Shown: piece by piece, positions 3,243-59,710 of the stretch
Numbering within the stretch: the first letter of the stretch is position 1
Layout of the letters: every line of letters begins with the position of its first letter
NCBI GenBank assembly: GCA_964016885.1
Contig: OZ024741.1
Coordinates: 191,766,001 to 191,830,000 of the forward strand
Direction of reading: 5' to 3'
DNA: 64,000 bases
DNA from: Eledone cirrhosa
Taxonomy: Eukaryota
The notes under the pieces: model-generated
Databases searched by the model: none
Told to the model about the DNA's origin: nothing
What the model saw: only the letters and a program-made list of their open reading frames with translations
Made by a program: the position numbers and the translations under genes

Positions 3243-3531
3243 CACACCATCTTGTTCCTACTGCCACTTTATCCAACATCTTTCTGACTTTTAGATTGGT
3301 TATAGCACACACACATTTTATCTTATTTGAATCTTCATTTTTATTTTTCATTTTTCATTAATTTTTTATTTATTTTCTGTTTTCTTCATTTCATTTTATT
3401 GCCTCCTATTACTTCATATGCATGGCACAGCTGAGTAGCCCAATTAACCCACTCGATATGCAAATTGGGCTACTCAGCCGTTAATATGCATAAGGTAAGT
3501 ATATACGTTCAACAATCTGGCAGGAAGGTAT

Positions 3532-3574
3532 ACGTTGTTGACGATAGCTAATAAGCTTGAAACTAGTACAGCGT
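3532..3574 (+). ncRNA. Minimal type I hammerhead ribozyme (C3U core variant)
   Basis: acgttg-TTGACGA-tagct aata agctt-GAAA-ctag-TA-cagcgt; palindromic stem III. Confidence 0.75.
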
Positions 3575-3954
3575 TCCTTTGTCAGTGTTGAACTAACGAG
3601 CAACGATAGTTGCTAGACATTACGGCTTAATACGGGATGTTTGTTTACAAACACACCGAGCATTATAATAAATGTTCGGGTGAATCCATACGTACATATA
3701 TATATATGAGTGCATGTATGTATATATATATACATACTACTGTACGTCTGTATACATATATGTATGTACGTGTACATACTTATATTTAAGTAACAGCCGT
3801 ACTAAGAGTGGGAAATGAAATTTTGTTTCATTTTTTCCGTTTGTCCTTTTCGGTGCACCCGGCCGATTAACCCACTCGATATGCAAATTGGGCTACTCAG
3901 CCGTTAATATGCATAAGGTAAGTATATACGTTCAACAATCTGGCAGGAAGGTAT

Positions 3955-3997
3955 ACGTTACTGACGATAGCTAATAAGCTTGAAACTAGTACAGCGT
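3955..3997 (+). ncRNA. Minimal type I hammerhead ribozyme
   Basis: acgtta-CTGACGA-tagct aata agctt-GAAA-ctag-TA-cagcgt; core-proximal stem I pair mismatched. Confidence 0.78.
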
Positions 3998-4261
3998 TCC
4001 TTTGTCAGTGTTGAACAAACGAGCAACGATGGTTGCTAGACACTACGTCTTAATACGAGATGTTTGTTTACAAACACACCGAGCATTATAATAAATGTTC
4101 GGTGAATCCATACGTACATATATATATGTGTGCATGTATGTATATATATATACATAGTACTGTACGTCTGTATACATATATGTATGTAAGTGTACATACT
4201 TATATTTAAGTAACAACCGTACTAAGAGTGGGAAATGAATTTCGTTTCATTTTTTCCGTTT

Positions 4262-54863: not shown

Positions 54864-55050
54864 AAAGCAAAGCAGAGTAATTGACAGTCACCGTTTCTCA
54901 GTTGTCAGTGGTTGTCAAGACCACCTACACCTTCACTTCTGCCAAGAGTTATAGAAGCTGGATTATTATAGAATTCCAGTTATATTTATGAGCTGTTGAA
55001 ACTCACTACAAGTGAGAAATGGTGACCATCGATTACTCTGCTTTGCTTTT
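54864..55050. repeat. Imperfect inverted repeat (~60-bp arms)
   Basis: AAAGCAAAGCAGAGTAAT..GTCACC.TTTCTCA versus TGAGAAATGGTGAC..ATTACTCTGCTTTGCTTT. Confidence 0.7.
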
Positions 55051-55237
55051 GCCGAGACTAGGTATGTGACTTTAGTCACTACTTTAACATTCATAGTGAA
55101 TGGCCTTCAAAATGTTTTTAAATAAACATACAGTATATTAGTAAATATACTATATGTACATTCATATATATATATATATATATATATATATATATATAAT
55201 ACACATACATATATAGATACATACATATATATATGTA

Positions 55238-58200
55238 TCATCATCATCATCATAATCATCATCGTTTAACGTCTATCTTCCACGTTAGCATGGGTTTAGA
55301 CGGGAGTTGTCCTACTTGCGGCAAGAATGGTTGAGTGACCATGTCGTGCTCGTATAGGACTGTCTGGCAGGTTTTCTATGGCTGGATGCCCTTCCTAGCA
55401 CCAACCACGTTTACAGTGTGGACTGGGAGGTTTTTACCGTGATACCTACACGGCCACATTACAGCGTGGTCTGTGTGTTTTTTTGTCGTGACACCTACAG
55501 GACCTCATTTATTTTGGACTGGATGTTGTGGTACCAACATAACTTTACAGAGAAAGGGTGGTGTTGGTGGGAGTGTGTGTGTGTGGGAAGGGGGGGGGAT
55601 AGGGATAGTAGGATGGGGTATATATTTGGTTAAGAGGTGCCTACTGACTGTAGGTTTCGCTTTGTACATAGGCAAGGCGGGTCTGCTGTATTACTGCGTA
55701 GCGCCAAAGATCTCGGTCCAGTGACATTGTCTTAGAGAGATGTAACTGTGTAAGGTCAGAATTTATCAAATCGTCCCAGGTTTTTCTGGGTCGACCTACT
55801 CCATAACTACCATCAAATTTGATCACCCTGCACTTTTTTTATACAACTGTCGTCTTTCAAGCGCATCACGTGACCATACCAACGTAGTCTTCTCTCGAGT
55901 AAACAGCATCTAATCCCTCTTATTCCTAATTTCTCACTTAGTTCATTTATGCTTTGCCGTTCACGTATATTACTATTACACATCCAACGGATCATGAATG
56001 CTTCATTCCTCTCCAGTCTGCGCAGATCCTCTGCACACAATGCCCATGTCTCACTGCCATGTAACATTGCTGTTCGTATACAGGCATCATACAATCTGCC
56101 TTTCATTTTTAGAGAGAAACCTTTAGTGGCCAATAGTGGTATTAAGTCTCTGAACTTTTTCCATCCATTCTGACTCTGGCTACTGTACTTTCAGAGCACT
56201 CTCCACCACTGCTGATTTTGTCACCCTGGTAACAGAAGGTGTCCACTATTTCTATAGAACTATCTAGGCAATAGAAGGAGCTAGTATCCTGTGGGCACTT
56301 GCTACTTATTGCACCTGAGCATCGGCCACATAAAATCTACGTTCTTAGATAGCTTACCTGTGATGTGATCCCACTACATCTTTTATGTACCCATAGTTTG
56401 CATTTGGGACATAAATGGAATTTCTACCTACTCTTTTCCTACACACTGAGCATGGCCATTTCCCAGAGGGTACCTGTACCCTATTTTCCTTTCTACATAC
56501 TAGAAATTTAGTCTTAGACAAGTTAACTTTAAGTCCTTATGATTCTAGGCCATGCTTCCATGTTTGGAATTTCTTCTCTAGTTCAGCCATCGATTCAGCT
56601 ATGAGAGTTAGATCATCTGCGTATAGAAGTTCTCATGGGCAGCCAGTCTTGAACTCCTCTGTTATAGCCTGAAGGGCACTAATAAATAGGAGGGGGCTAA
56701 GGACAGAGCCTTGATGAACACCAACTTTTACGCTAAATTCTTCACTATATTTGTTGTTAATTTTAACCTTGCTGACTGTTTCTTTATACATGGCTTGTAT
56801 AGCTCTCACAAGCCATTCATCAACACCTAGTTTTCTAAGAGCCCACCAGATAATGGAGCAGGGGACTCTGTCAAAGGCTTTCTCCAAGTCAACAAAAGCT
56901 AAGTATAGGGGTTTACTTTTAGCTAGGTACTTCTCCTGTAGTTGTACAAGGAAAAGAGCGTCCGTGGTACTTTTACCTGACACAAACCCAAACTGCATTT
57001 CATCTAGATCAGTTCGCTCTCTGATTATTTGCACTATAACTCTTTCTGTGGCCTTTATGACCTGGTCAACCAATTTAATGCCTCTATAGTTTCTCCTATC
57101 TAGGGCATCTCCTTTACCCTTGTAACAGTTAATGATGATGCTGCTACACCAGTCTTTTGGTATGACTCAATTCTGTATGACTTGGTTTACTATCCGGGTG
57201 ACCATAGTGTTTCCCACCATTCCAGATGCTTTCAGCATTTCAGCAACTATCTCCAGGCTGCCTTGCCTGTCTTCATATCTTTGATTGCCTTACTTACTAT
57301 ACTACCTTTAACTTGCACTGCTGGTCCCTCTATTGGATCGATTAGGAGTAGACTATCTTTTTCCCATTTATTCTCCTCATTTAGTAGTCTCTCGTAGTGA
57401 CACTTCCAAGCTACCTTCTTATCAGCATCAGTCATGGCAAGTACACCATCATCATTACAGACACACTTCTCCCCGACAATATTACGGTTTTCCTTGACAC
57501 ATTGTCTTGCAATCCTGAACACCTCACGTTTTTGGTCCTCACGTTGTAGAACATGCTCGAACTTTCTTTCCTCTGCTTCCCTTCTTGCAAAGTACACTTG
57601 TCTCCTAGCTTCTCTCTGGCTACTTGATAGTGTTCTCTACTTCCCCCATCCCGCCATATTTTCCAAGCCTGCTTTTTGGCCTTGATTGACTCCTCCACAT
57701 TACTGTTCCACAACCAAGTTACTCTCCTCCTGCCTATAGGTCTGCTCCAGCCACAGATTTCATTTGTTGCTTTCAGCAGGTTAACTTTCAGGAATTTCCA
57801 CTGTTCCTCTATATTGTACGACTCTAATTGTTCTTCCTTACTGTTAAAAGCATCAAGTAATATGCTTTTAAATTTGTTACTGGCTGTGGGGTCCTTTAAC
57901 TTCCATATTCTTCTCCTAAGGATAATCCTTTTCTGCTGTCGGGTACGTCTCGTCCTGACTATGAGGTCGCTAATTATCAGTCTATGTTGGGAGGTGCATT
58001 CTTCATGAGGGAGGGATTTAGTGTTTACAACAGACACTCTGTCACGTCTTCTGGTAAGGATATAATCTACCTGGCTGGTATGTTCCCCTGATCTGTAGGT
58101 GATCAAGTGATTGTCTCGTTTTTTTATTGTCTCTGTTGTCGAGTACGTCTAGTCCTGCCTATGAGGTCACTAACTATTAGGCTATGTTGGGAGGTGCACA
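55238..58200 (-). mobile_element. Decayed RTE LINE, same family as 27481-30920
   Basis: SQVDYILTR, SQHRLII, AFVDLEKAFDRV, VGVHQGSVLSPLLF, LLYADD, LHGSETW. Confidence 0.92.
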
Positions 58201-59632
58201 TATCACCATCATCATCATCACCGTTTTATGTCCGTTCTTCCACGCTAGCATGGGTTAGACGGGTTGTCCTGTTGTGAGCAGTGTCCAGTCGGCTGACCTT
58301 GTCTTTTTCATACGGGAACTGATTCTGGCTTGATTTCTACAGCTGGATGCCCTTCCTGACACCAACCTCATTTACAGTGAGTGCTGGGTGCTTTTTTTTT
58401 CGTGGCGCCTACACGTCCACTTTACAGTGTGTGCTGGGTGCATTTTTTCTGTGGCACCTCCACGACCACTTTGCAGTGGGAGGGTGTGGGGCATATTGTC
58501 TATATGCTTCAGCTTCGACTTGTACCCGTGGGGGGTCGGGTCTTCTGTATATATATATATATATTTATATATATATATATATATATATATATTCTTATAT
58601 ATATATATATATATATTTTTTTTGCGATCGACTTTCGTCAAATCGGACCGAGGAAACAATGTTTCCATCGGTCTTTCCAGTTGCTAGTACTATCTATCGG
58701 TCGCAACTCCAGGTAGAAGGAGCAACGTGAAATAAAATGTCTTGCTCAAGGACATAACGCATCGATCGGTCCAGGACTCGAACTCACAACCTCAAGATTG
58801 TGAATCCAATTCTCTAACCACTCAGCCATATTCTTATATATATATATATTCTTATATATATATATATATATATATATATATATATATATATATTCATATA
58901 TACATATATATGTATGCGTGTGTATATATATATACACACACATACATACATATACATACATTTATATATATACATATATATATATATATATATATATATA
59001 TATATGCAATGCATATATATATATATATATATATATATGGTGGCTGCCAACTCGTTTTCGAGTACGGCCACTACTTTATATCCATGTAGGAGAACCCCTA
59101 CCGATGCGCTGAACGAGTGTGACTTTTTAGTCCAGCCAGCGACTTGAAAACTCTGGTACTACACTTGTGACAATTATTGACACATAGTGCTGGGCCCATG
59201 GTACCATGTGACGACAAGTGCAGAGAGATCTCCAGATATAAAGCAATGCCTGTGCCGTGAAGCTTTTATAGTGAGCAAAGGCACTGCACAAAGCCAGTCC
59301 CACTCTCTTAACCAAGATGATATTTACCAAAAAGAAGAACATGTCAACATCATTGGATACCATCAGAGTTGCAGGTGTTATATCAGTGTTTTCCTTCTCT
59401 AGACTTCTGCCTATATATATATACATATATACATGCATATATATATATATATATATGCATGTACATATATATATACATGCATATATATATATATGCATGT
59501 ACATATATATATACATGCATATATATATATGCATGCCTATATATATATATATGTATGTATATATGATGATGATGATATGTGTGTATATATATATATACAT
59601 AAGTTTAGATGTTAAAGTCCTTTATTGATAAG

Positions 59633-59710
59633 GCTGTGATACATATTTTGATGATGGCAGTGACCACGCGATTTTGTGTAGTACCCAGTGTCATGATCTC
59701 ATCAGACAGC
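59633..59710 (-). ncRNA. Type I hammerhead with G12A, followed by AATAAA (orphan pseudo-LTR)
   Basis: Minus strand: gctgt-CTGATGA-gat..atc-AAAA-tatgta-TC-acagc. Confidence 0.72.

What the first reader, a model, noticed from the sequence alone, without database searches (positions are those of the whole stretch)
3430..59710. Dense set of self-cleaving hammerhead ribozymes: a PLE/retrozyme system with many families
Seen: 13 type I HHR motifs with traceable core and stem I (3532, 3955, 5289, 14513, 16818, 21309, 39343, 41655, 41856, 43615, 44923, 53421, 59633) in about nine unrelated sequence contexts. Most have tiny palindromic stem III (CTAG, TGCA, TGCGCA, TATATA, CTACGTAG). Known: PLE pseudo-LTRs and metazoan non-LTR retrozymes carry minimal HHRs thought to cleave as dimers. 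Inference: autonomous PLEs here mobilise several distinct non-coding ribozyme RNAs, which may be uncatalogued in this lineage.
Basis: partly seen in the sequence, partly recalled or inferred. Interest (0 to 1): 0.8.

Follow-up and report, generated by a model that had tools for sequence, protein, structure and literature searches.

The report
Octopus-type genome packed with hammerhead ribozymes
The 13 hammerhead ribozyme motifs are real and mark the ends of Penelope-like jumping genes and of short non-coding repeats that these genes likely copy, a known kind of system, but this likely octopod genome carries an estimated 300,000 such motifs in dozens of families.

Summary
All 13 motifs are present. 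My descriptor finds 8 strong motifs in the window against 0.15 in shuffles. Only 4 of the 13 are fully canonical; two have a 2-bp stem I.

They fall into 10 repeat families. Three are 3' ends (pLTRs) of Penelope-like elements (PLEs) that have intact ORFs elsewhere. Five are ORF-less 322-591-bp tandem units, i.e. non-LTR retrozymes. Two are unresolved.

The ORF-less units show the PLE insertion signature: two fixed 3' ends at (TA)n, and inverted heads. Of 79 inverted insertions, 64 pair one long end with one short end.

The window is not unusually dense. In 99 systematic 10-kb samples there were 109 motifs in 42 clusters, about 3.2e5 genome-wide.

HHR-bearing PLEs, an Octopus Hydra-clade family and PLE-derived retrozymes are all published, and this scan saw PLE hammerheads in other genomes. 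What is new is the scale and the end-signature link. Cleavage, expression and the partner enzyme are untested.

The parts
3422..4262 (+). F1 retrozyme insertion: short inverted head plus two 422-423-bp ORF-less units, ending at (TA)n
   Evidence: 5,150 exact 36-mer cores genome-wide, control 0; 17 recognisable cores in a 9.9-kb array
3532..3574 (+). Type I HHR, F1, C3U variant; predicted cut after 3568
   Evidence: covariation in relatives
3955..3997 (+). Type I HHR, F1, intact core, mismatch at the closing pair of stem I; predicted cut after 3991
5084..7421 (-). PLE-A 3' part (RT plus C-terminal GIY-YIG, Nematis-like linker), interrupted at 7422 by an LTR element
5289..5330 (-). Minimal HHR in the PLE-A pLTR (F2), 2-bp stem I, unpaired base before a 6-bp stem II; predicted cut after 5293
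   Evidence: (ORF upstream in 15 of 19 loci)
14003..14782 (+). F3 ORF-less 513-bp unit, partial tandem with inverted head
14513..14611 (+). Degenerate HHR of F3 (C3U, weak stem II, 8-bp stem I, long stem III); H17 at 14603
16718..16983 (+). 5'-truncated copy of F4 (ORF-less 591-bp unit) joined to the 3' UTR of an unrelated Hydra-type PLE fragment (15552-16713)
16818..16908 (+). HHR of F4, U3-A8 covariant core, palindromic stem III; H17 at 16904
19865..21415 (+). Hydra-type PLE-D 3' fragment with its pLTR (F5)
   Evidence: ORF upstream in 10 of 19 loci
21309..21378 (+). Canonical-core HHR of F5; predicted cut after 21370
39243..39497 (-). 5'-truncated copy of F6 (ORF-less 322-bp unit) with an inverted tail at its 5' end
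39341..39386 (-). Canonical-core HHR of F6; predicted cut after 39348
41520..41959 (.). Fold-back (inverted) pair of pLTR ends of a Hydra-clade PLE (F7), long end left and short end right, junction at a short palindrome near 41740
   Evidence: (6,272 exact 28-mers, control 0)
41655..41709 (-). Canonical-core HHR of F7; predicted cut after 41660
41856..41910 (+). Canonical-core HHR of F7; predicted cut after 41905
43442..44003 (-). F8 ORF-less unit (517-bp monomer), truncated copy with inverted head 43862-44003
43615..43694 (-). HHR of F8 with long stem III; this copy has a private G12A; H17 at 43622
44734..48316 (-). Second, older PLE-A copy (85% alike to the first)
44923..44964 (-). Minimal HHR in the PLE-A pLTR (F2), 2-bp stem I; H17 at 44927
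53421..53525 (+). HHR of F9 (old family), G12A, long loop 2; H17 at 53520; link to the PLE fragment at 51069-52794 not shown
59602..60230 (-). F10 element (about 740 bp known, no ORF upstream in 19 loci, no tandem seen)
59633..59710 (-). HHR of F10, G12A in this copy; H17 at 59638
61297..61392 (-).
   Evidence: related copies

Best explanation
The motifs are type I hammerheads that sit 50-330 bases upstream of the 3' ends of Penelope-like retrotransposons and of short ORF-less tandem repeats (non-LTR retrozymes), and both kinds of element are likely inserted by the PLE reverse transcriptase-endonuclease. SHOWN in sequence: motif anatomy and covariation; three families are pLTRs of ORF-bearing PLEs and five are ORF-less 322-591-bp tandem units; six window families and a sister of F1 end at two fixed positions 49-155 nt apart, mostly directly against (TA)n; copies are 5'-truncated and often carry an inverted head, and the two outer ends of such insertions are usually one long and one short; PLE ORFs without stops exist in the genome. 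INFERRED: a tandem RNA is bound by the PLE protein, which nicks a (TA)n target and starts reverse transcription at two internal sites downstream of the ribozyme, one per target strand in inverted insertions; 5' ends join through AT microhomology or fold back at short palindromes; the ORF-less RNAs borrow this enzyme in trans. INFERRED, weaker: the ribozymes cut multimeric transcripts to unit length, as dimers or with protein help where stem III is a tiny palindrome. This step is under long-term selection but is not needed for each insertion.
For: Motifs exceed chance (8 vs 0.15; 109 vs 1-6 per 990 kb). Compensatory changes in 6 of 13 and 5 of 13 pairs in two sets of relatives (7 and 6 sequences). 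A PLE ORF lies upstream on the same strand in 15 of 19 F2 loci and 10 of 19 F5 loci, but in 0 of 11, 0 of 19, 0 of 14, 0 of 19 and 0 of 19 loci for F1, F3, F4, F6, F8. F7 flanks a 4,097-bp Hydra PLE twice. Monomers are 422, 513, 591, 322 and 517 bp, GC 32-43%, longest ATG frame <=82 aa. Two fixed 3' ends per family (F4 long end). Of 79 inverted insertions, 64 are long+short, 5 short+short, 4 long+long, 6 unclear; 55 of 64 classifiable for ORF-less families and 9 of 9 for F7. PMC11167929 shows in vitro that this tail equals two RT start sites, that both strands are cut and extended, and calls it unique to PLEs. 13 of 70 scored PLE-A copies have stop-free frames of >=1,200 aa, and an 893-aa Hydra frame with all clade motifs lies 1.2 kb upstream of an F7 ribozyme.
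Against: No autonomous PLE sharing a tail or pLTR with any ORF-less family was found among the loci held, so the partner is unidentified. Flanks were mostly 1.5 kb and loci were the best matches, not a random draw. F9 and F10 show neither an ORF nor a tandem. The 'long' class includes a few copies that run past the long end, and for F4 and F6 the query stopped short of it; without those two families the count is 42 of 49. Only 4 of 13 window motifs are fully canonical. The F3 family amplified with a canonical core in only 1 of 24 motif-like copies. HHR mutants did not affect PLE insertion in vitro, and no RNA ends were seen at the cut site. Only 1 of 9 Xenopus retrozyme dimers cleaved. No cleavage or expression data exist here.
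Confidence: 0.8

Rival explanations
1. All motifs are merely 5'-truncated pLTR fragments of autonomous PLEs; there are no independent non-coding families.
For: True for F2, F5 and F7. Short F7 copies look like a separate element only because their 5' ends cluster at one palindromic site. F9 and F10 are unresolved. Flanks were mostly 1.5 kb.
Against: F1, F3, F4, F6 and F8 close on themselves as 322-591-bp tandem monomers with no ORF. F1 forms arrays with 17 recognisable cores in 9.9 kb and has a separately amplified 484-bp sister.
Confidence: 0.08
2. The elements are moved by PLE machinery, but the ribozymes are passengers: cleavage plays no part in their life cycle in this genome.
For: F3 amplified with C3U or U4C cores. 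F2 is young (98-99%) with a 2-bp stem I. PLE insertion in vitro ignores HHR mutants. Naiad PLEs thrive without HHRs.
Against: The core is kept in 42 sequence clusters (98 of 109 motifs have no core mismatch, though the descriptor allowed at most one). Stems covary between sister families. Most copies of F1, F5, F6, F7 and F8 keep intact cores.
Confidence: 0.2
3. The ORF-less units are satellite DNA spread by DNA-level processes (unequal crossover, rolling circle, Helitron capture), not by reverse transcription.
For: Long head-to-tail F1 arrays exist. The 2026 preprint proposes local tandem expansion after a PLE lands.
Against: Most copies are dispersed, 5'-truncated, end at two fixed sites against (TA)n and carry inverted heads with one long and one short end, as the autonomous PLE does. 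DNA-level expansion may still explain the longest arrays.
Confidence: 0.05
4. The motifs are chance matches in AT-rich repeat DNA.
For: Rfam reports none at gathering score. Most single motifs have unremarkable folding z-scores. The descriptor has some false positives in low-complexity DNA.
Against: 8 vs 0.15 in shuffles, thousands of exact copies, covariation, and a fixed position near PLE 3' ends.
Confidence: 0.01

Closest known systems
Minimal and variant type I HHRs in PLE pseudo-LTRs (Cervera and De la Pena 2014, PMC4209133; read parts 1-2 of 4)
   Same: Type I topology, palindromic stem III, unpaired base before stem II, short stem I (2 bp in D. virilis Penelope), U3-A8 core variant, pairs on opposite strands 100-700 bp apart, many families per genome.
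   Different: Counts there are about 2,000-9,000 per genome; here an estimated 3.2e5, with a different and looser descriptor. Several families here have long loop 2 or long stem III.
Hydra-clade PLEs, including Hydra-1_Obim from Octopus bimaculoides (Craig et al. 2021, PMC8557442; read passages, section 11, supplement parts 2 and 54 of 59)
   Same: RWK, DKT and CxCX5C motifs, no CCHH, C-terminal GIY-YIG, (TA)n targets, 3' HHR, partial tandems, inverted 5' copy, tail at one end.
   Different: One Octopus Hydra family is listed there. Here several divergent Hydra-type families occur in one window; the F7 element is 4.1 kb against <3 kb, and its tail is 103 nt against 30-40.
Metazoan non-LTR retrozymes (Cervera and De la Pena 2020, PMC7229834; read passages)
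   Same: ORF-less tandem units of a few hundred bp, GC <50%, one type I HHR per unit, self-paired predicted circles, coexistence with PLEs. F1 has the U.U mismatch at the base of stem II described for axolotl HHR_Amex2.
   Different: Units reach 591 bp. Families number in dozens rather than 2-16. Circular RNA and cleavage are not shown here. The paper names PLEs only as candidate mobilisers and the passages searched contain no 'inverted' ends.
Retrozymes as non-autonomous PLE derivatives (Li, Clavereau and Pollet 2026, bioRxiv 10.64898/2026.07.22.740005; read parts 1-3 of 5, supplements not seen)
   Same: Same conclusion: retrozymes depend on PLEs; units 51-972 bp; monomers, dimers and multimers.
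   Different: Their evidence is co-occurrence and pLTR similarity in vertebrates, with no mollusc sampled. Here no pLTR similarity was found, and the link rests on the insertion end signature.
Poseidon PLE of Anolis, PAc (Frangieh et al. 2024, PMC11167929; read parts 1-2 of 4)
   Same: Two RT start sites downstream of the HHR define a tail; AT-rich targets; both strands cut and extended.
   Different: Different clade and an autonomous element. Tails here are 49-155 nt and also occur in ORF-less families.

Membership tests
Type I hammerhead ribozyme | Core CUGANGA...GAAA...UH in type I order | tested here: met
   Exact in 7 of 13, U3-A8 covariant in 1, one substitution in 5; family majority canonical except F3 and F4
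Type I hammerhead ribozyme | Stems I-III pair and covary | tested here: met
   (two sets of relatives, 7 and 6 sequences, picked from descriptor hits and window copies); stem I is only 2 bp in F2 and stem II is weak in F3
Type I hammerhead ribozyme | Self-cleavage after H17 | not testable with these tools
   No assay; no RNA holder listed
Type I hammerhead ribozyme | Rfam hammerhead model at gathering score | tested here: not met
   Only a tRNA passed in the window and three loci
Non-LTR retrozyme (F1, F3, F4, F6, F8) | Head-to-tail units of a few hundred bp, each with a type I HHR | tested here: met
   422, 513, 591, 322, 517 bp; the F3 core is degenerate
Non-LTR retrozyme (F1, F3, F4, F6, F8) | No protein coding, GC <50% | tested here: met
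   Longest ATG frame 40-82 aa, GC 0.32-0.43; no PLE ORF upstream in 0 of 82 loci
Non-LTR retrozyme (F1, F3, F4, F6, F8) | Expressed as linear and circular unit-length RNA | not testable with these tools
   No RNA holder listed; predicted circles fold better than shuffles (z about -3 to -10), which is only suggestive
Non-LTR retrozyme (F9, F10) | Tandem ORF-less unit | tested here: inconclusive
   No ORF upstream (0 of 14, 0 of 19) but no tandem seen
Penelope-like element insertion | Partial tandem pLTR, inverted 5'-truncated copy, tail at one end | tested here: met
   for both ORF-bearing and ORF-less families
Hydra-clade PLE (element of F7) | RWK, DKT, CxCX5C linker, no CCHH, C-terminal GIY-YIG, (TA)n target, 3' HHR | tested here: met
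   893-aa frame in L333 against the definition; 28 of 30 ends followed by TA-rich sequence
Nematis-clade PLE (PLE-A, element of F2) | C-terminal EN with a short CX2-5CxxC linker, and placement in the clade by RT phylogeny | tested here: inconclusive
   Linker layout matches the Nematis rows, but there is a long insertion between RT3 and RT4 and no tree was built
Already catalogued repeat (Repbase/Dfam) | Family present in the libraries | not testable with these tools
   Libraries not available; the O. vulgaris repeat paper has no occurrence of 'ribozyme' in its main text

The most novel reading that the evidence does not exclude
This genome carries the heaviest self-cleaving ribozyme load yet described: about 3e5 hammerheads, one per 10 kb, in 40 to about 90 families. 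Its young ORF-less retrozymes are copied in trans by intact Hydra- or Nematis-like PLE enzymes through twin priming at two RNA sites, which would give the first direct enzyme-substrate pair for animal retrozyme mobilisation. Sense-oriented intronic copies would also cut host pre-mRNAs on a genome-wide scale.
Probability: 0.3. Interest if true: 0.7.

Novelty: new member of a known kind. Interest (0 to 1): 0.45.

Why it matters
How animal retrozymes move has been inferred only from co-occurrence and pLTR similarity. Here ORF-less retrozymes show the same two-site end signature as an autonomous PLE, and the genome holds both young retrozymes (95-99% identical copies) and stop-free PLE ORFs. The predicted RT start sites can therefore be tested directly in the published in vitro assay.

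The estimated load is about 107 motifs per Mb. The axolotl, with 126,247 motifs in 28 Gb, has about 4.5 per Mb; descriptors differ, so the comparison is rough. Rfam misses these motifs (235 were reported for giant squid), so cephalopod repeat annotations probably overlook them. The window itself is an ordinary sample of this genome.

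Tried and rejected
Rfam scans found no hammerhead at gathering score. In the E-value scan the 150 rows shown were microsatellite-driven miRNA matches and a tRNA, and 89 lower rows were not shown.

A DNA search with 41790-41958 returned nothing, not even itself. A pattern count answered the question instead.

I first read F4 (16818) as the pLTR of the PLE just upstream. This was rejected: 0 of 14 loci have an ORF upstream, and F4 is a 591-bp tandem.

I first read short F7 copies as a non-coding family with a fixed 5' end. 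This was rejected: they are truncated ends of a 4.1-kb PLE whose 5' junctions cluster at one palindrome.

PLE ORFs next to F1, F6, F8 and F10 copies were considered as partners. They were rejected as nested insertions at shared (TA)n sites, because no matching unit follows those ORFs. The 79% relative of F1 beside an RT fragment proved to be another ORF-less family of 484 bp. A search of tails against all held loci found no autonomous partner.

No RNA holder was listed, which is no evidence either way. Laying DNA contigs on 43000-44300 showed no interpretable empty site. Folding z-scores of single motifs were mostly weak.

Paper searches for hammerhead with octopus or cephalopod, retrozyme surveys since 2021 and non-autonomous Penelope end structures found no genome-wide HHR survey of a cephalopod. 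The library lacks most subscription papers. PMC6155905 gave no counts (passages).

Full report
SETTING. The window lies on a 416-Mb contig of a 3.0-Gb animal genome. It is 37% GC, rich in (TA)n and full of transposon fragments. The best named homolog of its longest PLE frame is an Octopus vulgaris protein at 67% identity, so an octopod host is likely (inference).

OBSERVATION. All 13 motifs are at the stated places. Four have a canonical core and all three stems (21309, 39343, 41655, 41856). 16818 has the U3-A8 core variant described for PLEs. 3955 has a mismatch closing stem I, and 3532 has C3U. 43615, 53421 and 59633 have G12A; the family majority is GAAA for the first and last, and mixed for 53421. 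14513 is degenerate. 5289 and 44923 have only a 2-bp stem I, like the D. virilis variant. A structure-aware descriptor scored 8 window motifs at >=26, against a mean of 0.15 and a maximum of 2 in 298 local dinucleotide shuffles. It recovered 7 of the 13 at that threshold, one below it, missed five, and found one more at 61297-61392. In two small sets of relatives, 6 of 13 and 5 of 13 pairs show compensatory change, with slid controls at 0-1; these sets were chosen from descriptor hits and window copies, so they lean toward the structure. Rfam reports no hammerhead at gathering score.

IS THE WINDOW SPECIAL? No. In 99 evenly chosen 10-kb stretches (989,800 bases) the same descriptor found 113 motifs, 109 after dropping 4 that were mostly microsatellite. 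The bootstrap range was 82-137, and shuffles gave 1-6 in 11 replicates. That extrapolates to about 3.2e5 motifs (2.4-4.1e5). A 64-kb equivalent reaches 8 with probability 0.37. The 109 motifs form 42 clusters at 80% identity (Chao2 about 92). Exact whole-genome counts for two families were 6,272 and 5,150, with controls at 0. Each occurred once in the sample, where about 2 were expected, so the sample does not overstate them. The 10 kb left of the window holds 12 motifs.

FAMILIES. The 13 motifs belong to 10 families, each multi-copy (only the 40 best candidates were scored per DNA search, and 11-20 loci per family were examined).

(a) pLTRs of ORF-bearing PLEs. F2 (5289, 44923) has an ORF upstream in 15 of 19 loci and F5 (21309) in 10 of 19. 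F7 (41655, 41856) has one in 3 of 20 short loci, but it flanks a 4,097-bp element on both sides. An 893-aa stop-free frame of that element has RWK, DKT, CxCX5C and no CCHH, which defines the Hydra clade. PLE-A has a Nematis-like linker, and 13 of 70 scored copies have stop-free frames of >=1,200 aa. The copies inside the window are truncated or interrupted.

(b) ORF-less tandem units. F1 is 422 bp, F3 513, F4 591, F6 322 and F8 517, with no PLE ORF upstream in 0 of 82 loci. GC is 32-43% and the longest ATG frame is <=82 aa. F1 forms arrays (17 recognisable cores in 9.9 kb) and has a 484-bp sister family. F3 and F8 are distant sisters.

(c) Unresolved. F9 and F10 show no ORF upstream and no tandem. 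In the random sample only 8 of 95 motifs with enough flank had a PLE ORF within 1.5 kb upstream in sense.

MECHANISM. F1, its sister, F3, F6, F7 and F8 each end at two fixed points downstream of the ribozyme, mostly directly against (TA)n. The tails are 54 nt (F1), 53 (its sister), 83 (F3), about 49 (F6), 103 (F7) and 79 (F8), and about 155 for F4. F10 ends are more scattered, and the F2 and F5 references stopped at the short end. Neighbouring opposite-strand copies are divergent in all but one of the pairs listed. In 79 inverted insertions the outer ends were long+short in 64, short+short in 5, long+long in 4 and unclear in 6 (duplicate loci were dropped; p = 2e-11 against an even split). The long class is loosely defined for F4 and F6 and includes a few read-through copies; without those two families it is 42 of 49. 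In the only reconstituted PLE, the tail equals two internal RT start sites, both target strands are cut and extended, and the signature is described as unique to PLEs. I therefore infer that ORF-less units are copied by a PLE enzyme, with one start site per target strand in inverted insertions. For F7, many 5' junctions fall at one short ATAT-containing palindrome, either joined to target TA or folded back; this explains the hairpins near 41740 and 22540. New elements often land in the (TA)n at the end of older ones, which creates misleading adjacencies such as F4 behind a PLE 3' UTR. The partner enzyme was not identified.

ROLE OF THE RIBOZYME. Conserved cores across dozens of families and covarying stems argue for selection on cleavage, most simply to cut tandem transcripts to unit length. 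Dimer folding is expected where stem III is a short palindrome. Against a strict requirement: F3 spread with a canonical core in 1 of 24 motif-like copies, HHR mutants did not impair PLE insertion in vitro, and 1 of 9 Xenopus dimers cleaved. No RNA data were available.

KNOWN OR NEW. HHRs in pLTRs (PMC4209133), an HHR-bearing Octopus Hydra family, metazoan retrozymes (PMC7229834) and their derivation from PLEs (bioRxiv 10.64898/2026.07.22.740005) are published. Earlier notes of this scan report PLE hammerheads and PLE-type non-coding tandems in other genomes (unchecked). My searches found no cephalopod HHR survey beyond 235 Rfam hits in giant squid, and no use of end signatures to link retrozymes to PLEs. 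The library is incomplete, the preprint's supplements were not seen, and Repbase/Dfam could not be checked. A 2017 paper on dimeric cleavage of small PLE-associated hammerheads is recalled only and was not read.

VERDICT. The feature is real, and these are new members of a known kind. The interest lies in the genome-wide scale and in a testable enzyme-substrate pairing, not in this window.

Noticed in passing
window 7422-13131: LTR retroelement material nested in PLE-A: three 294-bp LTR-like repeats (7422-7715, 9631-9924, 12838-13131) and an integrase frame at 11584-12606.
   Followed up: no
window 22490-23506: Hairpin at 22507-22575 shares the F7 fold-back junction; one arm continues into an Asn/Arg-rich frame resembling a Hydra PLE linker region.
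   Followed up: partly
window 24786-24857: tRNA-like sequence passing the Rfam gathering score (37.6 bits); gene, pseudogene or SINE head not determined.
   Followed up: no
window 53596-53985: 390-bp perfect palindrome directly after F9, with a 99% copy beside another F9 locus (L231); MITE-like.
   Followed up: no
L147 (10 kb left of the window): 12 HHR motifs scoring >=26, including five tandem 469-bp units of an F1-related family; denser than the window.
   Followed up: partly
window 43615, 53421, 59633: All three G12A defects lie at a CpG in the family majority, consistent with CpG decay after insertion; inference.
   Followed up: partly
window 48646-48690 and 50860-50984: Broken remnants of two further HHR-bearing repeats: one matches a common genome family, the other is F6-like.
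   Followed up: partly
window 643-2784 (-) and 15552-16713, 17547-19664 (+): Hydra-type PLE fragments with no HHR detected in the 3' sequence that survives in the window.
   Followed up: partly
window 25326-25916, 33450-34837, 36146-37729, 25769-30197, 55264-58198: Fragments of other transposons: PIF1 helicase (Helitron-like), hAT, RT-bearing LINEs, and a mariner-like frame recognised by eye only.
   Followed up: no
G000:C1:51775040-51793007: An array of the F1 retrozyme about 18 kb long, with alternating unit variants.
   Followed up: partly
window 5562-7439: PLE-A RT has an insertion of roughly 60 aa between motifs 3 and 4 although its endonuclease is C-terminal; its clade deserves a tree.
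   Followed up: no
window 42057-42430: Decayed 374-bp inverted repeat (65% self-complementary).
   Followed up: no
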